A stretch of 64,000 nt of DNA from Eledone cirrhosa (Eukaryota): assembly GCA_964016885.1 (NCBI GenBank), contig OZ024747.1:25482001-25546000 (forward strand). Direction: 5' to 3'. Under the pieces are notes generated by a model. It saw nothing but the letters and a program-made list of their open reading frames with translations, had not been told where the DNA came from and searched no databases. A program made the position numbers and the translations under genes. This document shows positions 10,318-64,000 of the stretch, in pieces (positions within the stretch are counted from its first letter, which is position 1; every line of letters begins with the position of its first letter).

Positions 10318-10630
10318 CAGTGTGAGAAGTGCCATGATTTATGAGAGTGAGACATGGCAGATGAACATGAAGCAACAAAGAAGGCTGGAAAGATCAAAAG
10401 AGAAAAGTCTATGCTACATGTGTGGGAAGTACCATGCTTTATGGTAGTGAGACATTATTAATGAACATGGAGCAGGAGAAAGAGCTGGAAACCTCAGAAG
10501 GGAAAGGTGTATGCTGCATGTGTGAGAAGTACCATGATTTATTGGAGTAAGAGATGGCTGATGAACATGGAGCAACCCAGACAACTGGAAAGAATGGAAA
10601 TCAGAGAAGTTCATTGGATGAGTGGAATAT
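10318..10630 (+). pseudogene. Decayed, internally duplicated RTE ORF C-terminal fragment
   Basis: [17 protein letters not shown]...[15 protein letters not shown] is homologous to LYDACIRTAMLHGSETW...RLERNEACMLRWMCN of the intact element. TGTGAGAAGT-x-CCATG recurs three times. Confidence 0.65.
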
Positions 10631-10678
10631 TCTCCATATATATTCTACATATATATACATATACACATATACATATAC

Positions 10679-10711
<33 letters not shown>

Positions 10712-10774
10712 CATATATATATACATATACATATACATATATATATATACATATACATATATATATACATATAC

Positions 10775-10810
<36 letters not shown>

Positions 10811-11442
10811 ATACATATATATACATATACATATATACATACATATATATACATATATATACATATACATATATATACATATATATACATATACATATAT
10901 ATACATATACATATATATACATATACATATATATACATATACATATATATACATATATATACATATACATATACATATATACATATACATATATACATAT
11001 ACATATATACATATACACATATACATATACATATATACATATACACATATACATATACATATATATACATATACATATATATACATATACATATATATAC
11101 ATATACATATATATACATATACATATATACATATACATATATACATATACACATATACATATACACATATACATATATACATATACATATATATACATAT
11201 ATATACATATATATATACATATATATATATACATATACATATATATATATACATATACATATATACATATACATATATATATATACATATACATATATAT
11301 ATATACATATATATACATATATACATATATATACATATATATATATATATACATATATACATATATATATATACATATATATACATATATATACATATAT
11401 ATATATATATACATATATACATATATATACATATATATACAC

Positions 11443-11505
<63 letters not shown>

Positions 11506-11535
11506 CATATATATATATATATACATATATATACA

Positions 11536-11569
<34 letters not shown>

Positions 11570-11664
11570 CATATATATACATATATACATATATATACAT
11601 ATATATACATATATACATATATATACATATATATACATATATATACATATATATATATATATAC

Positions 11665-11801
<137 letters not shown>

Positions 11802-11972
11802 CATATACATATATATACATATACATATATATACATATATATATACATATACATATATATATACATATACATATACATATATATACATATACATATATAT
11901 ACATATATACACATATATACATACATATATACATATACATATATATATATATACATATATACATATATATAC

Positions 11973-12061
<89 letters not shown>

Positions 12062-12110
12062 CATATATATATAATATAAGATCAAAAGATGGTTAAAGGA
12101 GTTGCATGTA

Positions 12111-12177
12111 TTTTATTATGCGCATTTCAAAAACAAACATCATCATGCAATAATATTTGTGTTTTCATCAGATAAAA
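12111..12177 (-). ncRNA. Type I hammerhead ribozyme motif, copy 1
   Basis: Minus strand: UUUUAU-CUGAUGA-[36-nt hairpin, 15 of 16 positions paired including G:U]-GAAA-UGCGCA-UA^AUAAAA. Complete core, 6-bp stem I, palindromic AUGCGCAU stem III, AUA cleavage triplet. Confidence 0.75.
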
Positions 12178-12409
12178 CAGGAGAACATGATATGAAGGCT
12201 ATATTATGTATACTCCAGTCCTACAAACTGTAGAGTGCTTCTTATCCGATATCTGCATTGCTTTATTGTACTACAATAAAACTCACCTCCTACATATACA
12301 TATATATATATATACATATACATATATATATATACATATACATACATATACATATACATACATATATATACATATACATACATATACATATACATACATA
12401 TATATATAC

Positions 12410-12442
<33 letters not shown>

Positions 12443-12493
12443 CATATATATACATATATATATACATATATATATATATACATATATATATAC

Positions 12494-12524
<31 letters not shown>

Positions 12525-12596
12525 CATACATATATATATATATACATATATATATACATATATATATACATATATATATATATACATACATATACA

Positions 12597-12630
<34 letters not shown>

Positions 12631-12635
12631 CACAC

Positions 12636-12668
<33 letters not shown>

Positions 12669-12723
12669 CATATATATATACATATAATATAAGATCAAAA
12701 GATGGTTAAAGGAGTTGCATGTA

Positions 12724-12790
12724 TTTTATTATGCGCATTTCAAAAACAAACATCATCATGCAATAATATTTGTGTTTTCATCAGATAAAA
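12724..12790 (-). ncRNA. Type I hammerhead ribozyme motif, copy 2
   Basis: Identical core to copy 1, 613 nt away. The single difference between the 133-bp repeats (just outside these coordinates) extends stem I to 8 Watson-Crick pairs. Confidence 0.75.
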
Positions 12791-12913
12791 TAGGAGAACA
12801 TGATATGAAGGCTATACATATACATATATACATATATATATATACATATACATATATATATATACATATACATATATATATATACATATATACATATATA
12901 TATACATATATAC

Positions 12914-13128
<215 letters not shown>

Positions 13129-14860
13129 CATATATATATATACATATATACATATATACATATACATATATATATATATACATATATATATATACATATA
13201 CATATATACATATATATATAGAGAGAGAGAGAAAGAAAGAAGACAAACAATGAATTACAGAGGATGATGGAAAGAGAGCTAGTAGTGAGGAATGTTGCAA
13301 AGAGAATTGGATTAAGATGATTGGGTCATTTGTTGAAGATGGCTAAAGGTAACTGGGAGAGAGGAGTGATGGAAACAAATGAGGGAGGAAGTAGAGGAAG
13401 GGGTGGGGGGCAAGAAAGACAGCCAAGGGGTTGATGAAGTGGAATGCAGCCAATAGGGCAAAATGGAGAAGCTTTTGATGGAGCTCACAATGCTAACCCT
13501 TGTTTTAACAAAGACAATGGTTTTTAAATTTTGTTGTTATCTATAACTGCAGTCTTAATATTCAAAGATTTAATTATTATCCACACAAATAACCTCTCAC
13601 CAAACACATTTCCCACCTAACTCAAGCTCTTTGCTATTGTCTGCCAATTCCACAGTATATACAGAGTTGTATTTAGTGTCATTAATAAATAATCTCTTTA
13701 GACAATATATTGTCTTCTGTTTTAACCTTTTCTCTGACATAGTCGCAGACACCATTATGTAATGGCTACTCCATATGGATTATATTATAAACTGTAAATT
13801 CCTCTGTCAATGAGTCAAACTTTTCCTCAGTGCAAACCTGCTGGCAGTGTTGCACAATAGCTACTGCATATATAAACTATTCATCTGTAAATACTACTGT
13901 CAGTGTAGTAACCCTTTCACAGACCATGATGGCTGACAGCACAGTATATTGGTTACTACATGTAATACTTTCAACTGTAAGTCTGTCAATGTAAATTTTC
14001 AGTGTCATTTTATGTATGCTGACAACCACTGAAATGACTGGTTTTAATGGTGAATAACATCAGTTAAAATGAAATGAAGGCATATAAAATATTCAGATTT
14101 AGCTACAATTTCCTGGTGTCTACTAAACATCTAAGTTCTATAAACCCTTTTATTACTATTTTTCTAATGAAATATACTGTATATTATTTAATTAATGAAG
14201 AATTTGAAGGAATTTACTATAGCTATTATTTAATTATTAAGATGGTTTTTGTAACATAACAAAAGGTTCTCATCTCAAATTTTACCTGAAGGTTTGAATT
14301 TAAATAGGAACCCTTTCAAATGGGTGTTGTTTTATAGAATTAGAGGCAGTTTTGGGCATATTTGTCTGTGAAAGCACATGTCTTAGTGGCTAGATAATTG
14401 GATTTGCAATCATGAGGTATACACACATCTGTTTAGGCAACCTAAGCAACTAATCTGTCAGAAGTTAGATGTGAGTTTGTGTTGGACATCTGTTAGTTCT
14501 GTTTATGAATGCTCTAATTGTTCAAACAATGAACCAACCTGTTCTTAAGATTACCATGTAAGTGACTGAGCATTCCACAATCACGTGCATACTTAATGTG
14601 ATTGTGGAATGCTCAGAGAAATTCAGCATAATATAGAGGCTAGTTCTTTGAATTACAGGTACAACTTATGACAAGTACAGCTGAATGGACTGGATTGATT
14701 AGGAATCAAACTCATGACTTTATGATTGTGAGCTGAACACCCTAATCACTAGGCCATGTGTTTTCACAGGGATTAGTTCTATCTACATAAACACCATATG
14801 GAATAAAAACACAAACAAAAGAAAAGCAGGAAAAATGAATGGATGTCTATAGAAACTTAC

Positions 14861-23969: not shown

Positions 23970-24101
23970 TGTAATAAACAACATAAGGCAATTATTTCAT
24001 TTACCAGTGGTTTCTTGAAAGCAAACAAATTTTGCTTTCAATCATCAGAATGAAAAAATCCTGGTGTATTTATTGACATTGGATTTTAAAAACCTATATA
24101 T

Positions 24102-35302: not shown

Positions 35303-36075
35303 TATTGGGTTAGACAGAAAGTTCTTGCCATTTTTCAAATTTTTTATTTACTTTGGTGTTTTTTATCACGAGGAAAATTTTACAAGTCAAAATACTGCCA
35401 TCATCTGCGATTATCGAGAGCCATCATTTAGGAAGGCACAAGATTCCAACACTCTAGAATTCTTCTAGCTTCAATGCAAGGATTTCTGTCAGCTAATAGG
35501 TCTTTGACTGCATTGCATTGCTCATTGAGAGAAAAAGGTGCAAGAGTGGGCAAATATGGTGGATGGGGCAGAACATCCCAACCTAGCTATAATAGCTTTT
35601 CACGGGTCATCCTTGATGTATGGGGACAAGAGTTATGAAGGAATCGAACAGAATCATGGTGTGGGTGCACCTGTGTGATTTTTGCTGCTAATCTGTCAGG
35701 ATGTTGACAATAGACGTCAGAGATTATGCTGGTGTTTGATGGGAGCAGCTCATAGGGGATGACACATTTCCAGCCCTACCCAACACTCAGTAGGGCCATG
35801 TGAGGGTGGAGGCCAGTCTTTGCTTGCCATTGTGGTGCACTCTCTTTATTAATTCATGATCACTTGTGCTTGGCATTAATGTAGGGACACCATTTTTCAT
35901 CACCAGTGACAATGGAACATAACCAGTTGGTTGTGTAATGGTAGGAGAGCAGAGAAGTTGCAGCTGCCACCCAACATTCCCGATTATAGTCAGTTAAATT
36001 GTGGGGCACCCATTGGTCCAGCTTGGACACCTTCCGTATTGCATGCAAGTGATTGAAGATGGTTGTTTTTGATGC
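35303..36075 (-). mobile_element. Degenerate mariner transposon, 3' part
   Basis: WVPHNL and IVTGDEKW motifs, decayed HPPY-x-P-x-LAP at about 35540-35570, and a TA plus TTGGGTT...AAAGTTCTTGC TIR-like end. Many stops and frameshifts. Confidence 0.85.
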
Positions 36076-36349
36076 CCCAGATACAAGTAATTCTTTTCCA
36101 TCTGAATGGACAGAAGCAATGTGAAATAAAGTGTCTTGCTCAAGGACCCAATACACCACTGGCATTCAAACTGACAACCTTATGATTGTGAGCTGAACAC
36201 TGTAACCATTAAGACATACACCTTCCATCCTTATATATCAATACATCAAATATTCTAGTTGCCACCAAAATATTTCTGACATTTAATCAGCAATCCAGCC
36301 GAGAGTAGACTTGAAATGGAAAGTGATTTTTCAGTTATATTTTGAAAAG

Positions 36350-37706: not shown

Positions 37707-37968
37707 TCACCTTGATCACCTTCACCGACCAGTCTGTCGGGTGCCAACCGGCGCCGCTGGACACAGCACGTCGTGCTATTTTAGCCATAAGATAACGCCA
37801 TCCCACTGGCTGGGCGGGCAGGCCGGTACTCATTTCTACAGCTGAGTAAACTGGAGCAACGTGAAATAAAGTGTCTTGCTCAAGGAAACAACACATCACC
37901 CGGTCCGAGAATTGAACTCACAACCTTTCGATTGCAAGTCCAATGCTCTAACCACTAAGCCATGCGCC

Positions 37969-42839: not shown

Positions 42840-43246
42840 CCTATCTCTGTCATACCATTAACTATTACTAGCTGGAATTGCCAAAGTTTGTGACAATCTA
42901 TTTATGATCGCTTTTTTTTTTGAAAAAGAGGATCACACATCAAAATATCATTAAATAGTGTAAACTCTTTTCTTTCCCCAACAGGATTTTTTACTTTTGT
43001 ATTTCTAACTTGCATTGTACTGGCTTTCGCAAAACAATTGTAACCATATATCTACTTATATTGAGCATCTAAATGGTCACTTGATTTCCCAGAAATACCA
43101 GCCAAATCTTCCTCAAATCATACCCTGCTGTTGCTTAACAATGGACCAATTAGATAATGTGGTCTGATATATACAATATATCTGAAAAAGATGGAATAGT
43201 CATGGCTGGTCTGCTTGATTAGAGCTGACTTGAGGTTAAACAATAT

Positions 43247-46200
43247 ATGTGTGAAGCGCCAACCCAGAGACCCTCCCCTACGAGTGTCGACAAATGCCCA
43301 AAACTCCGAGTTGGTACCATCAATGTAGGCTCAATGAAAGGAAGAGCAGGAGAAATCGTAGAAATGCTAGAGCGAAAGGAAGTTGATGTATGCTGTGTGC
43401 AAGAGACTAGATGGAGAGGAGGGTCTGCTAGAGTCCTTGTAGGAAAAAGCCAGTGCTACAAATTTTTCTGGGTGGGAAATGACGATGGGATGGGTGGTGT
43501 AGGTATACTATTAGCTGACAAGTGGGTAGATAAAGTAATCTCAGTGTACAGGGTAAATGCAAGAATCATTAAACTCAGACTAGTCCTGAATAAGACAATT
43601 ACCACAATAATATCAGCTTACGCACCCCAATCGGGGCTGCCAGACGAACTTAAGGATAGGTTTTACGAGTCCCTAATACACACTACTGCTCTAACAGACG
43701 ACAAGGACTTCCTAATCATTGCAGGAGATTTTAACGGACACGTAGGTAAACACTGCGACGGCTTCAATAGAGTACATGGAGGCCATGGAGTTGGCACAAG
43801 GAATGAGGAAGGATTCAGACTTCTAGAATTCTGCGACGCCAATGACATGTCGATATGTAACACAAACTTTAAAAAACCCGACAACCACCTGATCACCTAT
43901 AGATCAGGGGAGCACTCTAGTCAGTTAGATTTTATTCTCATCAGAGGACGTGACAGATGGACGGTCGTAAACACAAAAGCCTTCCCTAGTGAGGAATGTA
44001 CATCCCAACATAGCTTAGTTGTCAGCGACCTCACGGTCAGAACTAGACGAGCCCTGAAACAGAGGCCAACCTGGAGAAGAAAGATCTGGAAGCTGAAAGT
44101 CCCCTCAACCAGTAACAGATTTAAAGATATTTTACTCAACGCCTACGACAGTAAAGAAGAACAGATAGAGACATTTAACGTAGAAGAGAACTGGGAGTTC
44201 CTAAAAAATAACTTACTAGAGGCGACGGATGAGGTTTGTGGCTGGAGTAAGACCTCAAGCAGGAGGAGAGTGACTTGGTGGTGGAACAATAAGGTAGATG
44301 AAGCAGTCAAGGCCAAGAGACAGGCATGGAAAGAATGGAAGAACGGGGGGAGCAGGGTACATTACATAGAGACCAAGAGGGAAGCTAGGCGACAAGTATA
44401 CTTAGCTAGGAGGGAAGCAGAGGATAGAAAATTCAAGCATGTTTTACAACGTGAGGACCAGAAACAGGAGGTATTCAAGATTGCGAGGCAGTGTGTCAGA
44501 GATAGTTGTGATGTCATTGGAGAGAAGTGTATCCGGAATGATAAAGGTGAGCTTGCCCTCACAAGTGCTGAGAAGAAAGATGCATGGAAGAGTCATTATG
44601 ATAGATTACTAAATGAGGAGAATGCATGGGAAGAAGAGACCCTACCCCACGTAGACCCTATAGAGGGACCAGCAGTACAAGTCAGCGGCAGCGTAGTAAG
44701 TAAGGCAATCAGAGATATGAAGATAGGGAAGGCAACCGGTCCATCGGGTATAGCTGCCGAGATGCTGAAGGCATCTGGGTCTGTAGGTCACACTATAACC
44801 ACACGTATCGTTAACCAGGTAATACTAGAGGGGGCCATACCAAAAGATTGGTGCAGTAGCATCATTGTCAACTGCTACAAAGGTAAAGGCGATGCACTAG
44901 ATAGAGGAAACTATAGAGGTATAAAGTTGATGGACCAGGTCATGAAAGTAACAGAAAGAGTTATAGCACAGCTGATTAGGGACCGGGTGAATATAGACGA
45001 GATGCAATTTGGGTTTGTTCCAGGGAAAGGCACCACTGATGCGCTCTTCCTTGTGAGGCAATTACAGGAAAAGTACCTAGCTAAAAGTAAGCCACTCTAC
45101 TTGGCATTTGTCGACCTTGAGAAAGCCTTTGACAGAGTTCCACGTGCAGTAATCTGGTGGGCTCTTAGAAAACTAGGAGTAGACGAATGGCTTGTGAAAG
45201 CGGTACAAGCCATGTATAGGGGAGCAGTCAGCAAAGTTAGGATTGGCAATGAGTATAGCGAGGAATTTAGCGTACAGGTTGGGGTCCACCAGGGCTCTGT
45301 TCTTAGCCCTCTCCTGTTCATCATAGTCCTGCAGGCAATAACGGAGGAGTTTAAGACCGGATGCCCATGGGAACTCCTGTATGCTGATGACCTCGCACTC
45401 ATAGCTGAATCTATGGTAGAACTAGAGAATAAATTCCAAACCTGGAAGCAGGGACTAGAGAGAAAGGGCCTCAAAGTCAACATGACAAAGACTAAGGTCC
45501 TTATAAGTAGACGAGAAAACAGAACCCAGATCCCCTCAGGGAAATGGCCTTGCTCAGTATGTAGGAAAGGTGTAGGTAGGAACTCCATTCTTTGCCCCAA
45601 ATGCAAACAATGGGTACACAAGAGATGTAGCGGGATCTCAGGAAGCTTAATTAAGAATGTAGGATTCACATGCAGCAGCTGTGCTGAAACAGCAAGCAAA
45701 CAGCCACAGGAAACAAGTACCACCAATCTCTGGGAGGGCCCTGTAGAAACAGTAGACAGCTTCTGCTACCTAGGTGACCGAATTAGCAACGGAGGTGGGT
45801 GCTCAGAAAGTACAATAACTAGGGTAAGAACGGGATGGAAGAAGTTTAGGGAACTACTACCACTGCTAGCTGCAAAAGGCTTCTCCCTCAGAATGAAAGG
45901 CAGACTGTATGATGCGTGTATCCGAACAGCGATGTTGCATGGTAGTGAGACCTGGGCACTGAAGGTGGAAGACTTACGTAGATTAGAGAGAAACGAAGCC
46001 TGCATGCTCCGATGGATGTGTAACAGTAATATACGTGAACGACAAAGCATAAATGAATTGAGAGAGAGACTGAGCATAAGAGGAATCAAATGCTGCGTGC
46101 AGGAGAGGCGGTTACGCTGGTATGGACATGTGATGCGTATGAAGGATGACAGCTGCATAAAAAGGTGCAGAGCACTAGAAGTTGATGGAAACCGCGGAGT

Positions 46201-46342
46201 GGGGAGACCCAAGATGACTTGGGATGAGGTGATAAGAGCCGACCTTACCCAACTACACCTCTCAAAGTCAATGACACACGACCGTGACTTCTGGCGTCAC
46301 GCAGTAATACAGGGTACCCGACCTCCCATGGGTACATGCTGA
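43247..46342 (+). CDS. RTE-clade LINE ORF: APE endonuclease + reverse transcriptase with an inserted PHD-type zinc finger
   Basis: 1031 aa without a stop. APE motifs GTINV, VQET, AYAP, GDFN, LDFIL, SQHSLV. RT motifs NYRGIKL, QFGF, FVDLEKAFD, GVHQGSVLSP, LYADD, FCYLG. RTE-type C-terminus HGSETW, RLRWYGHV, RGVGRPKMTW. Confidence 0.95.
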   Translation: MCEAPTQRPSPTSVDKCPKLRVGTINVGSMKGRAGEIVEMLERKEVDVCCVQETRWRGGSARVLVGKSQCYKFFWVGNDDGMGGVGILLADKWVDKVISVYRVNARIIKLRLVLNKTITTIISAYAPQSGLPDELKDRFYESLIHTTALTDDKDFLIIAGDFNGHVGKHCDGFNRVHGGHGVGTRNEEGFRLLEFCDANDMSICNTNFKKPDNHLITYRSGEHSSQLDFILIRGRDRWTVVNTKAFPSEECTSQHSLVVSDLTVRTRRALKQRPTWRRKIWKLKVPSTSNRFKDILLNAYDSKEEQIETFNVEENWEFLKNNLLEATDEVCGWSKTSSRRRVTWWWNNKVDEAVKAKRQAWKEWKNGGSRVHYIETKREARRQVYLARREAEDRKFKHVLQREDQKQEVFKIARQCVRDSCDVIGEKCIRNDKGELALTSAEKKDAWKSHYDRLLNEENAWEEETLPHVDPIEGPAVQVSGSVVSKAIRDMKIGKATGPSGIAAEMLKASGSVGHTITTRIVNQVILEGAIPKDWCSSIIVNCYKGKGDALDRGNYRGIKLMDQVMKVTERVIAQLIRDRVNIDEMQFGFVPGKGTTDALFLVRQLQEKYLAKSKPLYLAFVDLEKAFDRVPRAVIWWALRKLGVDEWLVKAVQAMYRGAVSKVRIGNEYSEEFSVQVGVHQGSVLSPLLFIIVLQAITEEFKTGCPWELLYADDLALIAESMVELENKFQTWKQGLERKGLKVNMTKTKVLISRRENRTQIPSGKWPCSVCRKGVGRNSILCPKCKQWVHKRCSGISGSLIKNVGFTCSSCAETASKQPQETSTTNLWEGPVETVDSFCYLGDRISNGGGCSESTITRVRTGWKKFRELLPLLAAKGFSLRMKGRLYDACIRTAMLHGSETWALKVEDLRRLERNEACMLRWMCNSNIRERQSINELRERLSIRGIKCCVQERRLRWYGHVMRMKDDSCIKRCRALEVDGNRGVGRPKMTWDEVIRADLTQLHLSKSMTHDRDFWRHAVIQGTRPPMGTC

Positions 46343-50565: not shown

Positions 50566-50603
<38 letters not shown>

Positions 50604-50637
50604 TAATAAATGGAAACTATATTTATAAAACCATATT

Positions 50638-50703
50638 TATTTTATTATACATATTTCAAGGGCAACCAAGGTAAATTATGGTGCGCTTTCATCAGATAAA
50701 ATA
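50638..50703 (-). ncRNA. Type I hammerhead ribozyme motif, divergent copy 3
   Basis: UAUUUUAU-CUGAUGA-[AAGCGCACCA...UGGUUGCCCUU hairpin]-GAAA-UAUGUA-UA^AUAAAAUA. 8-bp stem I, intact core, flanked by (TA)n tracts. Confidence 0.68.
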
Positions 50704-53700
50704 CAGATTTATTTTATAAATAAATATTGACATACCCGGAAAAAAGACAACCTTAACGGTTGGAGCTTCCTATATATATATATATATATAGGGAAAATAA
50801 TAAAGATTTGAAAATGCACCTAATGTTTTTTATATATACAAACAAATTTACAATACCCTAAAAAGAAATCAGCTCATACAAAATAAATTATAATTCTTTT
50901 TTAAAAATAATAGATGCAGTATTAGTTATGATTATCTAATCAGTGTTTGAACTAACCAGTTTCACAATGAGTAGCTTTTCAAAGTTGCATTTTAATTTGT
51001 GCTAGTATTGAATATATACTCCTACCTGTGATATTGACTTCAAGAGATGGTAAAAACAAACAAAAAGACAAAACAAATCAACTCCAATACTGGACTGATA
51101 CGTTATTGACTTCGAATGGATGAAAAGCAAAATTGACCTCAGTAACATTTGAATTCAAAGCACAGTGAGTCGGAACAAACACGAATGCATTTTTAATCCA
51201 ACACCCCAACTACTCTGCCAATTCTGTAGAAATGCGAAATGATTTACCTTGTTCAAGGATAAAACATGCTGTCTGCTCTAGAGATTGAACCCATAACCAT
51301 ACAATCATGAAACCAACACCCTAACTTCTAGGCTTTCTGCCTTCAGAATGTCAATAACCTCATCACTTTTCTAGAGATTATACTATGAAAATCAAGTGAC
51401 AAACTATCATCTCAAAAGAAATGAATTGAACAAAAACTTACTCCCCTAACTCACACACACTTTTGATTGGTTATAGATCTTACTCTACCACACACACACA
51501 CACAATTTCTAATTGGCTATGAACCTTATTCCTCCTACCTCACACACATTTCTGATAGGCTATGAATCTTATTCCTTTTACCCCACACTTCTGGTTATGA
51601 AGCAACTGAGAGAGTAGTACACTAATCATCAGTGCAAGAGTTCATCTTTGAGGAAACTAAAGAATGCTACTGCAACTCATTTGGCTTTTGTTGCAGCCAT
51701 TCCGAAAGAAGAGAATCAATGAATATGATTCCGTATTAATTAATTAAGGCAGTGTTAAATGACTAAATGAAAGCCGATATTGGTAAGATGATGACACAGA
51801 TGTCAGTGAAACTTTGTTAAATACAAACTACTCTATTATTAGAAAAATATTACACAGCTGGCTGCTGGCAAGATATCAAACCAACAAACTTACCAATCAT
51901 GTCACTATTTTTTAATATTACTTTTTGTATCTTTTAAAATATATTTCCCATGTAAAAACAAGTGGTAATTGATATGATACTGTTAAAAAAGTTGTTATTT
52001 TTGGAAATTAGCCACTGATTAAGCCAAATATATTTCTCCTTTTCTGGTGTTTTTGTTTATATATTTGCTCCTTTTAAATGTATATGCCAATATGAAACAG
52101 ACAAGTACTGCTGGTTTGATAAGCCTGTAAATTCAGATATTTGTATAATTGATAGTTATAGAACAAGTAATTAGTACCAGGAAAGATATCCCCACCATAC
52201 TTCCTAATATCTAGTCATTCAGCCATGAAAAAAGAAAATGAATGAAATGAAATTTACGGTTCACACATAAGCATAAGGTTTTATCTCATGAGGTCTCGTA
52301 GGTGTTTTAATGAAAGGGGCCTCAGTCCTATCATAAAATGTAATGTGAAATGACAACATATATGGTCCAGGAATCGAACCATAACCGCATGATTGTCAGC
52401 CCAATGCACCTTCACACAATGAAATATGAGTGATATCTATTTCTCCAAGGAAAGTGACTGAGGCAAATAGATAATGCACAAGGAACCCTAGAAGCAAAGA
52501 TAAAGGATTCAAGTAGTCGTAACCCTCCCCACAATTAGATGGACTGGGCAAGAAGAGGAAATTTCCTCACTCAAGTTCACAATATCCATAGTAGGGTTTG
52601 AAACTCACTGCTTTCATTTCAATATACATTTTCCACCTTAATCATTTGCTAGATTGTTTCTTGTACCAAGACATCCAAGAATGGCTTGTATGTGAGGACA
52701 AGGAATTTTAACCCTTTTGTGACTGTATTTTTAATGAAATATATTCCATTTCAATTAATTAATGAAAAATTTATTAAAATGACTATTTCATTATTAAGAA
52801 ACTAACTTTAGATATGGGTCTTATATATATTTATGTTGGAAGATTTTAATTTAAATAAGAATGTTTTAAAATGTGGTTTTGTTTCATAGAACCAGGCAGG
52901 TTTTGGCTGAGTTGATAATGAAAGGGTTAATATCAAACATCCTTATTAACCACTTCCTTACCACATTTCTAATGAAAAACACTGTCTATGAATTTCAGAT
53001 AACTTTGGAGAGAATTTGTAATATAACTAGTATTCTGAACATAACTTAAACATTCCTACATAAAATTTAGGTGGAAGATTTTTAACACAAACGGAAGTTT
53101 CTGGTGGCTTGGTATCAAAAAGGTTACATTTGGATTGAATGCAATTCTATAAATCAGTATTACCAAGCCTTTGGCAAAAACAGGTGTTTTTGATTTAACA
53201 GAGTTTCTTCAATTGCAAACACTAAATTATCAAGTAAGCTTGTTAACAACACCCAGTTCCCCTAACTAGACATATATATGATCAGTATACATCTCCCATA
53301 AATAACTTATAGTTGTTTCCCAGATAGCTTCTAATGGCACTAACCGTACTTACACTACTATAAATCTGCCTGAGCAATCTTATTACTTAGTCTTTTGTTA
53401 CCATATTTCTATTAAAAGAATACCAATGATTTTCAATTAATTTTGAAAGTAATAAAGAATTTGGAGGGATTTAGTAATATAAGTTTGGAACATAATTTAA
53501 CAAAGGCTCAGACATAGTAGGTTTTTAGATAAATATAAAGAATTTAAAATAAACAGTGTTGTATTGTACAACTTGGCACAGTATCAAGTGGTTTGGTATC
53601 AAAAGAGTTAAAGGATAACTAACATACATTAGCCACAATCAAGCCAGTAAATATACAACTTAACCCTTTCATGAAGCTTGGAAGCAGTAAATTTGGAAAC

Positions 53701-56218: not shown

Positions 56219-57356
56219 TTATAATAATAATAATAATGAAATTATTGTGTAAAGTGCTCAGGTGCACTACAACTCATCAATATAGTACATAGAATAATAC
56301 ACAAATGTCAGGGAAGTACATGTGTGTATGTGTTAGCTGTAGTGTTGGCGGATCTCGGGAAGCATGGAGGCCTTAAAGGATGCAGTGTCTCGACAGCTAA
56401 CAACTGATGCAGGTAGTTTGTTCCATGCTTCAGCAACTCTGAGCATGAAAAAATGTTTCCGAATGTCATGGGAACTGTGCTGTTTTCTTACTTTGTAGGC
56501 ATGTCCACGTGTGTTAGACACATGGAAATCGAAAAGGTACTCAGGGTTGTTGTTGGCAACATGGTTAACAATTTTGTGGGTGTTTACCAAGTCAGTTGCC
56601 AGGGAAGCAAGGCGCTCAGAGTATGGTAGATGCCTGATGGAGGGTATTCGCTTGGTTGCACGTCTCTGAACAGTTTCCAGGCGGTCAATGTCCTGAGCAA
56701 GATAGGGGTTCCAGACTGGTGATGCAAATTCTAAGTGTGGTCGCACCATAGCTGTATACAGCCTTAAATAGATATCTGGAGAGCGGCTGACAAAGGTCTT
56801 GCTGAGTGATGCTAAGACACCCTCGGCCCTCTTGACAATTTTAGAGACGTGCCTCGTCCAACGCAAATCGCTGCTGACCGTAATGCCCAGGTCACATTCA
56901 CAGGAAAACTTCTTGATATTAGTGCTGTGGAGGGAGTATGTGGATGCTGGGTTTTTACTCCCAAAATGCATGGTGGTGCACTTGTCCACAGCTAGCTTGA
57001 GTTGCCAGTCTGAGATCCACTGTTGCATTGTGTCCAGGTCAGACTGCAAGCAAGATCTATAGTGTTCAGGATCTGTCCTTTTTATCTCAAGGTACAGCTT
57101 GATGTCGTCTGCATACTTTAGTACTGTGGCATTCCTTAAGTTGGCATCTATGTCATTAATATATGCCACAAACAAAAGGGGGCCAAGAACAGATCCCTGT
57201 GGTACACCAGATGACATCTCATATGGTGAGGAATGCTGTCCCAGAACTGTGACTACCTCTCTTCGACTGAGAATGAAGGACTTCAACCAGTTAAAAAAAT
57301 CATCCTTCACACCCATTGCAGAGAGTTTTGCCATAAGCATTTTGTGTGGTACAGTA
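56219..57356 (-). mobile_element. 5'-truncated CR1-clade LINE (RT and C-terminus; ORF 56333-57340)
   Basis: Motifs TVPH, SGVPQGSVLGPLLF, KYADD, DLGITV, VRPHLEFASPVWNPY, VQRRATK, TRGH, WNKLP. (ATT)n tail. TSD AGATAA at 56213-56218 and 57357-57362. Confidence 0.9.
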
Positions 57357-57934
57357 AGATAAAGCCTTTACCATAAAAATGCAATAGTATATATAGAGTA
57401 ATGTAAATGTTAAAGGGTTAACAGTGACATGGTTAGAAGAAGTAACTAGAAAAACAACCAAATCACCTCATTAGGGTGATGGGAGGGAGAGAGAGTGAGG
57501 AGGAGAGGGAGAAAAGAAGAAATCGAGAGAGAGAGATAGAAGAGGAAGGAGGGAGAGAGATATGGGGAAAAGATAGAGAGAGGGAATTGGATAGAGAGAG
57601 AGAGAGTAGTGTTAGAGGGGATAAGCAGAGAGAGAGGGGGAGGGAGGGAGAAAGAAAGAAAGACAGAAGGGTTAGATAGAGACAAGGGAAAAGAGATAGA
57701 AAGAAAAAACAAAATAAATATATGAATAGTTATTTAATAATAACTCCATAACTAGATATAAGAAGCCGAAACTGGAAGATGAAGATGGTGAATATGAAGA
57801 ATATAGTTCCAAATTGATTACATATGTTATACTGTAACACTTCCATATTATATTGCAATGGGATTAGAAACTGCACCACCACCACCACCATCACTATCAT
57901 AGTGATAATGATGGTGGCAGTGGTAGTATTGGTG

Positions 57935-61821: not shown

Positions 61822-64000
61822 GTATAAATGCTTAACACATATATACATGGTTTAATACACATGTACACATATATACATGGTTTAATACACATGTACACAT
61901 ATATACATGGTTTAATACACACGTACACATATATACATGGTTTAATACACATGTACACATATATACATAGTTTAATACACACGTACACATATATACATGG
62001 TTTAATACACACGTACACATATATACATAGTTTAATACACATGTACACATATATACATGGTTTAATACACACGTACACATATATACATAGTTTAATACAC
62101 ACGTACACATATATACATGGTTTAATACACATGTACACATATATACATGGTTTAATACACATGTACACATATATACATAGTTTAATACACATGTACACAT
62201 ATATACATGGTTTAATACACACGTACACATATATACATGGTTTAATACACACGTACACATATATACATGGTTTAATACACACGTACACATATATACATAG
62301 TTTAATACACATGTACACATATATACATAGTTTAATACACATGTACACATATATACATAGTTTAATACACATGTACACATATATACATAGTTTAATACAC
62401 ATGTACACATATATACATGGTTTAATACACACGTACACATATATACATGGTTTAATACACACGTACACATATATACATAGTTTAATACACACGTACACAT
62501 ATATACATGGTTTAATACACATGTACACATATATACATAGTTTAATACACATGTACACATATATACATGGTTTAATACACACGTACACATATATACATGG
62601 TTTAACACACATATACACATATATACATAGTTTAATACACATGTACACATATATACATGGTTTAATACACACGTACACATATATACATAGTTTAATACAC
62701 ATGTACACATATATACATGGTTTAATACACACGTACACATATATACATAGTTTAATACACATGTACACATATATACATAGTTTAATACACATGTACACAT
62801 ATATACATAGTTTAATACACATGTACACATATATACATAGTTTAATACACATGTACACATATATACATGGTTTAATACACACGTACACATATATACATGG
62901 TTTAACACACATGTACACATATATACATGGTTTAATACACATATAAAAGCTTAATACATAGTTTAATACACATGCACACATATATACATGGTTTAACACA
63001 CATGTACACATATATACATAGTATAATACACACGTACACATATATACATAGTATAATACACACGTACACATATATACATGGTTTAATACACACGTACACA
63101 TATATACATAGTATAATACACACGTACACATATATACATAGTATAATACACATGCACACATATATACATGGTTTAACACACATGTACACATATATACATA
63201 GTATAATACACACGTACACATATATACATGGTTTAATACACACGTACACATATATACATAGTTTAATACACACGTACACATATATACATAGTTTAATACA
63301 CACGTTCACATATATACATAGTTTAATACACACGTACACATATATACATAGTATAATACACACGTACACATATATACATGGTTTAATACACACGTACACA
63401 TATATACATGGTTTAATACACACGTACACATATATACATGGTTTAATACACACGTACACATATATACATGGTTTAATACACACGTACACATATATACATA
63501 GTATAATACACATGTACACATATATACATGGTTTAATACACACGTACACATATATACATAGTTTAATACACATGTACACATATATACATAGTTTAATACA
63601 CATGTACACATATATACATGGTTTAATACACACGTACACATATATACATAGTATAATACACACGTACACATATATACATAGTATAATACACACGTACACA
63701 TATATACATGGTTTAACACACATGTACACATATATACATAGTTTAATACACATGTACACATATATACATGGTTTAATACACATATAAAAGCTTAATACAT
63801 AGTTTAATACACATGCACACATATATACATGGTTTAACACACATGTACACATATATACATAGTATAATACACACGTACACATATATACATAGTATAATAC
63901 ACACGTACACATATATACATGGTTTAATACACACGTACACATATATACATAGTATAATACACACGTACACATATATACATAGTATAATACACATGCACAC
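61822..64000. repeat. 30-bp tandem satellite (AYGTACACATATATACATRGTWTAATACAC) with higher-order structure, runs off the window end
   Basis: About 70 near-identical units. Phase-break motif ATATAAAAGCTTAATACAT at 62941 and 63782, with a variant at about 61822. Confidence 0.97.

What the first reader, a model, noticed from the sequence alone, without database searches (positions are those of the whole stretch)
50638..50703. Third hammerhead with the same core and stem I but a completely different stem II
Seen: UAUUUUAU-CUGAUGA-hairpin-GAAA-UAUGUA-UA^AUAAAAUA, again on the minus strand and again between (TA)n tracts (50570-50600, 50770-50790). Stem II sequence is unrelated to the 12-kb copies yet still pairs (about 9 bp with one mismatch and one bulge). 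Stem III AUAUGUAU is one CpG-type change from the palindrome AUACGUAU. Inference: conserved structure with divergent sequence argues that the motifs are real and belong to a family of TA-associated ribozyme elements.
Basis: partly seen in the sequence, partly recalled or inferred. Interest (0 to 1): 0.75.

Follow-up and report, generated by a model that had tools for sequence, protein, structure and literature searches.

The report
Hammerhead-bearing end of Penelope-like retrotransposon
This hammerhead-ribozyme motif is real and is the end piece of a known kind of jumping gene, a Hydra-clade Penelope-like retrotransposon, pasted into a TA repeat; related motifs occur tens of thousands of times in this animal genome, and where the copies start and stop suggests they were likely copied from RNA the ribozyme had not cut.

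Summary
Confirmed: a type I hammerhead at 50638-50703 (-) inside a 174-bp unit between (TA)n tracts. The unit is the terminal repeat (pLTR) of a ~3.9-kb retroelement whose ~742-aa ORF carries the Hydra-clade PLE signatures (RWR, DKT, YRDD, CxCX5C, CxxC/CxH, no CCHH). The 12-kb hammerheads belong to a sister family. A stem-I-plus-core pattern matches 48,185 times (control 0); stem II covaries across 12 variants around an invariant C.Y mismatch. The CpG-decay idea fails (loop III TATATA 2,501, TATGTA 1,098, TACGTA 8, TACATA 12). Copy ends are informative: 3' ends fall at two fixed points (+51, about +142 from the cut), 16 of 16 back-to-back pairs use one each, only 3 of 82 arms begin near the cut, and 5' ends pile up at an initiator/DPE-like motif. 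Likely mechanism: internal target-primed reverse transcription on uncut or re-ligated RNA; a lone ribozyme is probably nearly inactive and would need a partner. Cleavage and transcription were not tested. Hydra PLEs with hammerheads in octopus are published (Craig 2021), and this scan already reported the same system on other DNA of this genome. New member of a known kind.

The parts
50597..50770 (-). Solo pLTR copy (174 bp, short 3' end) of a Hydra-clade Penelope-like element, here called family A
   Evidence: 98-99% identical over 174 nt to other copies; longer copies continue 5' through a 1.3-kb UTR into the RT-EN ORF
50638..50703 (-). Type I hammerhead: stem I 50696-50703 with 50638-50645, core 50689-50695, stem II 50658-50688, GAAA 50654-50657, predicted cut 50646/50645 after an AUA triplet
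   Evidence: covariation
50647..50654 (-). Self-complementary stem/loop III (8 nt, two G-U pairs in a dimer), predicted dimerisation site
   Evidence: monomer stem III costs +2.9 kcal/mol, 8-bp self-duplex -2.2 kcal/mol; variant counts
50620..50722 (-). Distal 12-bp extension of stem I (50711-50722 with 50620-50631) beyond a 7/6-nt internal loop
   Evidence: MFE and centroid agree; not a conserved column set across all 12 variants
50738..50770 (-). 5'-terminal hairpin of the unit holding a DPE-like 5-mer (50748-50752); the initiator-like motif just upstream is missing in this copy
   Evidence: fold (z -1.2, weak); spacing in full copies; consensus motifs recalled
50771..50790 (.). (TA)n target tract, 5' side
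50569..50603 (.). (TA)n target tract, 3' side
12070..12295 (-). Sister-family (B) insertion: pLTR with hammerhead (core 12171) joined back-to-back to an inverted tail
12690..12815 (-). Second family-B pLTR with hammerhead (core 12784)

Best explanation
The motif is the hammerhead in the terminal repeat of a Hydra-clade Penelope-like retrotransposon, and this 174-bp copy was likely made when the element's own reverse transcriptase/endonuclease nicked a TA repeat and copied an uncut element RNA from an internal start about 51 nt past the ribozyme site back towards the RNA's likely 5' end. Shown: family identity, TA targeting, two fixed 3' ends, one of each in back-to-back pairs, no pile-up of 5' ends at the cut site, a pile-up at a conserved motif about 134 nt upstream of the cut. 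Inferred: the motif is the transcription start; priming is target-primed at two RNA sites, as shown in vitro for a Poseidon PLE; a lone hammerhead is nearly inactive (weak stem III, A-U instead of G-C at the base of stem II) and would cut only when two copies pair through loop III, for example the 5' and 3' pLTRs of one full-length transcript, which could release a unit-length RNA that may be ligated into a circle.
For: Long copies join this pLTR to an ORF with all Hydra motifs (definition in PMC8557442 section 11). Protein language-model neighbours at 0.96-0.98 carry GIY-YIG and RVT_1 in part of their members. (TA)n of 8 or more follows 41 of 43 short ends and 21 of 32 long ends, 9 of the other 11 running on into the element's own 5' UTR; background 2-5%. 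16 of 16 back-to-back pairs combine one short and one long end (about 0.45 per pair by chance), matching the two RT start sites that bound the 'tail' in PMC11167929. 73 of 82 arms picked only on sequence 3' of the cut keep the core; 3 of 82 begin within 9 nt of the cut. 18 of 55 arms that reach the upstream motif end inside it (by eye), as do 18 of 30 family-A copies. A DPE-like 5-mer sits at +27/+28 in 13 of 13 long copies against 13 of 558 background sites. Stem II: 92.9% of cells paired, 22 compensatory cells, 0 of 500 shuffles as high.
Against: No RNA evidence: three possible RNA runs gave 0 laid contigs; cleavage and start site untested. Pfam, NCBIfam and PDB sequence searches gave no significant RT or GIY-YIG hit for the element's own ORF, and the fold job did not finish. 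No tree with published Hydra sequences was built. The one full-length family-A frame examined lacks the second catalytic Asp. 10 of 23 upstream pLTRs reach more than 200 nt upstream of the cut, beyond the proposed start, so a simple linear transcript cannot explain all copies. The 5' pile-up could partly reflect microhomology joining to (TA)n. The 13 DPE cases come from about five related lineages, and the covariation control ignores relatedness.
Confidence: 0.8

Rival explanations
1. Same element, but solo copies are ordinary 5'-truncated copies primed at the 3' pLTR of long transcripts (or of RNA circles made by hammerhead cleavage and ligation); the 5' pile-up is a reverse-transcriptase stop or microhomology hot spot, not a transcript start.
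For: 5' ends also scatter over the whole 3.9 kb; more-than-unit copies exist in 10 of 23 cases, as a circular template predicts (hypothesis in PMC4209133); many 5' junctions use T/A overlap with the target.
Against: The flanking UTR is richer in TA overlap than the hot spot; ends fall 5' of the hairpin, not at its 3' foot; several junctions are not at TA; the spacing to a DPE-like motif is kept in diverged subfamilies.
Confidence: 0.35
2. An independent non-autonomous retrozyme or SINE-like unit that amplifies by itself using PLE proteins.
For: Short units far outnumber long ones (1,701 against 159 exact 20-mers on either side of the hot spot; the upstream word is polymorphic, so the ratio is overstated); retrozymes are proposed to derive from pLTRs (bioRxiv 10.64898/2026.07.22.740005).
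Against: The unit is contiguous with, and 95-99% identical to, the ends of ORF-bearing elements; the examined copies are not tandem arrays; this copy lacks the initiator-like motif.
Confidence: 0.1
3. Chance resemblance in AT-rich DNA, or a decayed passenger with no selected RNA structure.
For: Weak folding z-scores; no Rfam hammerhead hit among rows shown.
Against: 48,185 against 0; 4 against 0.005; compensatory changes in 6 of 7 stem II pairs in a region the search pattern did not fix.
Confidence: 0.02

Closest known systems
Hydra clade of endonuclease-bearing Penelope-like elements, including Hydra-1_Obim of Octopus bimaculoides (Craig et al. 2021, PMC8557442; section 11, passages and supplement rows read)
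   Same: Single ORF with RT then C-terminal GIY-YIG; RWK-type, DKT, CxCX5C, CxxC and CxH motifs; no CCHH; (TA)n target; hammerhead near the 3' end; pLTRs, inverted copies and a one-sided tail.
   Different: Unit about 3.9 kb with a 1.2-1.8-kb AT-rich 3' UTR (published Hydra elements generally under 3 kb); hammerhead unlike that of Hydra-1_Obim (other stems, 6-nt palindromic loop III); tail about 90 nt instead of 30-40; tens of thousands of copies.
PLE hammerheads with small palindromic helix III (Cervera and de la Pena 2014, PMC4209133; parts 1-2 of 4 read)
   Same: Type I, weak palindromic helix III predicted to work as a dimer, long helix II, mostly dispersed single motifs, many sequence families per genome.
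   Different: Here A-U rather than the conserved G10.1-C11.1 pair in family A, an invariant C.Y mismatch at the fourth position of stem II in 12 of 12 variants, and a longer stem I.
Poseidon element PAc of the green anole (Frangieh et al. 2024, PMC11167929; parts 1-2 of 4 read)
   Same: Two RT start sites bounding the tail, both DNA strands cut and extended, AT-rich target, hammerhead cleavage not needed for insertion.
   Different: Other clade; shown in vitro there, only inferred from copy ends here; starts are about 90 nt apart and lie in the 5' UTR.
Animal non-LTR retrozymes (Cervera and de la Pena 2020, PMC7229834, passages; Li et al. 2026 preprint, parts 1-2 of 5)
   Same: Short hammerhead-bearing units at very high copy number (about 120,000 in axolotl).
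   Different: Retrozymes are non-coding tandem repeats; this unit is the end of an ORF-bearing element and is not tandem here.

Membership tests
Type I hammerhead ribozyme | Core CUGANGA ... GAAA ... NUH | tested here: met
   triplet AUA
Type I hammerhead ribozyme | Stems I and II pair, with covariation | tested here: met
   stem I was fixed by the search pattern, so only stem II counts as covariation
Type I hammerhead ribozyme | G10.1-C11.1 pair typical of canonical and PLE hammerheads | tested here: not met
   A-U in this copy; A-U 6, G-U 3, G-C 2, unpaired 1 of 12 variants. Typical, not absolute, feature
Type I hammerhead ribozyme | Self-cleavage | not testable with these tools
   no assay; no RNA reads laid
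Dimer-type PLE hammerhead | Weak helix III with self-complementary loop | tested here: met
   3,599 of 3,619 counted family-A loops can pair at all 8 positions without needing TACGTA
Penelope-like element (EN+) | Single ORF with RT and GIY-YIG endonuclease | tested here: met
   motifs by alignment and atlas neighbours; Pfam, NCBIfam and PDB gave no significant hit
Penelope-like element (EN+) | pLTRs, partial tandems, inverted 5'-truncated copy, one-sided tail | tested here: met
Hydra clade | RWK-type and DKT motifs | tested here: met
   RWR in 13 of 15 and DKT in 15 of 15 long frames (DKT was the selection rule)
Hydra clade | CxCX5C linker; CxxC and CxH around the catalytic E and N | tested here: met
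   CxCX5C 14 of 15, CxxC..E and CxH 15 of 15
Hydra clade | CCHH motif absent | tested here: met
   one Cys only inside the GIY-YIG core, read by eye
Hydra clade | Insertion into (TA)n | tested here: met
   52 of 54 short ends in the independent set
Hydra clade | Generally shorter than 3 kb | tested here: not met
   about 3.9 kb between hammerheads; a tendency in the paper, not a diagnostic
Hydra clade | Placement in an RT tree with published Hydra sequences | not tested
   reference proteins were seen only in the paper's supplement; compared motif by motif by eye
Non-LTR retrozyme | Non-coding tandem repeat unit independent of an ORF | tested here: not met
   unit is the end of ORF-bearing elements

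The most novel reading that the evidence does not exclude
The solo hammerhead units are a defined product, not random truncations: a complete cDNA of the element's 5' leader, from an initiator/DPE promoter in the pLTR to the nearer of two fixed RT start sites, made from uncut RNA; while full-length and more-than-unit copies come from circles released when the two pLTR hammerheads of one transcript pair through loop III. The ribozyme would then be a switch between making short dead copies and making new active elements, and tens of thousands of young copies in this genome record both routes.
Probability: 0.3. Interest if true: 0.65.

Novelty: new member of a known kind. Interest (0 to 1): 0.36.

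Why it matters
What PLE hammerheads do, and how partial tandems and solo pLTRs arise, is still open in the papers read (PMC8557442, PMC2377424, PMC11167929). This family gives a large natural record with mapped ends, near-intact sister ORFs and a precise prediction for the RNA start, the two priming sites and the dimer helix. It also shows that standard libraries miss these elements (a relative is annotated as a GATA zinc-finger-like protein), so a sizeable repeat class in octopus-like genomes is probably under-annotated. The class itself is known.

Tried and rejected
Rfam scan: only TA/CA-repeat microRNA look-alikes in the 150 rows shown. CpG decay of loop III: rejected. PLE ORF inside the window: tblastn found none. 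Pfam, NCBIfam, PDB sequence searches: no significant hit. Sequencing runs: only contigs with small shares; 0 laid for three possible RNA runs, so nothing on expression or cleavage. Structure prediction: queued, not finished. A stricter tail classifier called 17 of 82 arms long against 23 and 28 by union and eye; it misses one subfamily's tail, so pair calls rest. Three arms were dropped from the 82 by de-duplication and read separately. Cross-family arm swap: cognate arms pair better on average (p 3e-5) but are best in only 4 of 12 rows. Neptune or Nematis membership was considered from memory and dropped after reading the Hydra definition. Lunse et al. on dimeric PLE hammerheads is not held and is not used.

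Full report
Observation. The minus strand of 50638-50703 holds a type I hammerhead as described: an 8-bp A-U stem I, CUGAUGA at 50695-50689, a 31-nt stem II region, GAAA, a 6-nt loop region and an AUA triplet with the predicted cut between 50646 and 50645. Stem II folds with one C.C mismatch and one bulge, and stem I continues into a 12-bp distal helix. TA tracts flank the unit. A full descriptor finds 4 motifs in the window against 0.005 per shuffle in 200 shuffles. Folding energy alone is unremarkable (z -1.0 and -1.7) and Rfam shows no hammerhead among 150 of 286 rows.

The family. The window lies in a 3.0-Gb animal genome; octopus-like is my inference from an Octopus sinensis relative of the ORF. 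The 174-bp unit 50597-50770 has 1,055 first-look candidates, the 40 scored at 93-100%. A pattern fixing stem I and the core but not stem II matches 48,185 times against 0 for the control, and a 30-mer 3' of the cut matches 38,868 times. Across 12 stem II variants, 92.9% of cells pair, 6 of 7 pairs change on both sides, 0 of 500 shuffles reach the score, and slid registers pair at 21-66%; the variants are related, so this is not a probability. The fourth position is a C.Y mismatch in 12 of 12.

Parent element. Longer copies run 5' through about 1.3 kb of AT-rich UTR into an ORF. L084 has pLTR, ORF, UTR, pLTR and an inverted copy, 3,856 nt between hammerheads. Of 16 regions fetched around long frames, 15 hold frames of 729-793 aa from the first Met; RWR 13, YRDD 13, CxCX5C 14, CxxC..E and CxH 15 of 15; 12 have a sense hammerhead 1.2-1.8 kb after the stop and 6 have one about 240 nt before the ATG. 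Only one Cys lies in the GIY-YIG core. These are the Hydra signatures of Craig et al. 2021 (PMC8557442, section 11), whose supplement already lists Hydra-1_Obim with a hammerhead and a (TA)n target. The one full-length family-A frame examined (L169) is 70-74% identical to the others and lacks the second catalytic Asp; only 89 of 48,373 candidates were scored. Library searches did not recognise the protein; atlas neighbours at 0.96-0.98 carry GIY-YIG or RVT_1 in 18-92% of members of some clusters. The 12-kb hammerheads belong to a sister family whose ORF pieces are 41-60% identical to family A. No such ORF lies in the window.

Loop III. Behind the same stem II flank the genome has TATATA 2,501, TATGTA 1,098, TACATA 12 and TACGTA 8 exact matches. 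CpG decay after insertion would give TACATA and TATGTA about equally, so it is rejected for this copy. The native 8-mer pairs with itself at all positions through two G-U pairs, but weakly (-2.2 kcal/mol; -3.2 for the TATATA form, -10.5 for family B), and a monomeric stem III costs +2.9. This fits the dimer-type, low-activity hammerheads of PMC4209133.

Copy ends. In 84 family-A-like copies, 43 end about 51 nt and 32 about 142 nt past the cut, 7 inside the tail, 2 unassigned; (TA)n follows 41 of 43 and 21 of 32, and 9 of the other 11 run on into the 5' UTR (30 of these loci were chosen with a query that included TA flanks). In an independent set, arms on the first 20 Mb of contig C1 chosen only on the 30-mer 3' of the cut (70 loci covering most of the first 100 of 38,868 matches), 73 of 82 keep the core, 5 have internal deletions, 1 stops in stem II and 3 begin within 9 nt of the cut. 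All 16 back-to-back pairs have one short and one long end. Earlier notes of this scan suggested this pairing test. It matches the anole PLE, which cuts and extends both strands, starts at two internal RNA sites bounding the tail and does not need hammerhead cleavage (PMC11167929).

5' ends. 18 of 30 family-A copies carrying the -125 word stop within 10 nt upstream of it (two pairs share an insertion); exact counts fall from 1,701 to 159 across this point, overstated because the upstream word is polymorphic. Across subfamilies 18 of 55 arms that reach a conserved CACT-containing motif at -133 to -140 end inside it, 34 pass it, 3 are ambiguous (by eye). A DPE-like 5-mer lies at +27/+28 from it in 13 of 13 long copies against 13 of 558 background sites (consensus recalled; about five lineages). 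Drosophila Penelope has an internal promoter with a downstream element (PMC2377424, passages) and rotifer pLTRs carry an initiator-like TCACT, with solo pLTRs put down to recombination or deletion (PMC3846280, passages). I infer that the motif is the RNA start and that solo units are leader copies. Against this as the whole story, 10 of 23 upstream pLTRs extend more than 200 nt upstream of the cut, which needs read-through, template jumps or circles.

Mechanism. Shown: identity, target, ends. Inferred: the element protein nicks (TA)n, primes at two fixed RNA sites and copies uncut or re-ligated RNA; this copy is a one-armed, short-end product stopping 8 nt short of the likely start. Its hammerhead is likely nearly silent alone. 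No RNA data could be laid.

Novelty. Hydra PLEs with hammerheads in octopus are in print, and the scan's own notes report the system on other DNA of this genome. Seven literature searches showed no listing on this family's abundance or on a promoter-defined 5' end of solo pLTRs; a 2026 O. vulgaris repeat paper has no occurrence of ribozyme, hammerhead or Hydra in its main text (PMC13282606; its supplements not read). Subscription papers and Repbase were not searchable. Verdict: new member of a known kind, interest 0.36.

Noticed in passing
window 23994-24056 (-): A fourth type I hammerhead with different stems and a 7-nt near-palindromic loop III, in a ~140-bp unit between (TA)n tracts; 1,242 first-look candidates, 40 scored at 94-99% identity, several as back-to-back pairs. 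Parent element not identified.
   Followed up: partly
window 43229-46342 (+): 1,037-aa open frame with endonuclease and RT motifs, RTE-type LINE by eye; label recalled, not searched.
   Followed up: no
window 56333-57367 (-) and 35860-36165 (-): Fragment of a CR1/L2-type LINE RT and a mariner-type transposase fragment by eye; labels recalled.
   Followed up: no
window 10627-13220 and 61835-64000: A 2.6-kb degenerate (TA)n array hosting the two family-B insertions, and a 30-bp satellite of 72 or more copies running off the window.
   Followed up: no
L002, L013, L021, L024, L038, L040, L042, L052, L176, L177, L180: Many further hammerhead families with unrelated stems and mostly palindromic loop III lie beside these insertions; L180 holds three spaced about 483 bp apart, a retrozyme-like tandem.
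   Followed up: no
P0008: A relative of the element's ORF is annotated in Octopus sinensis as 'GATA zinc finger domain-containing protein 14-like'; 45% identical over 197 aa of the RT region, so probably a mis-named PLE protein.
   Followed up: partly
alignment A1, fourth position of stem II: Invariant C opposite a pyrimidine in 12 of 12 variants although the rest of stem II varies; a candidate tertiary contact.
   Followed up: partly
window 37905-37962 (-): Partial tRNA-like match just above the Rfam gathering score, next to a (TA)n tract; possibly a SINE head.
   Followed up: no
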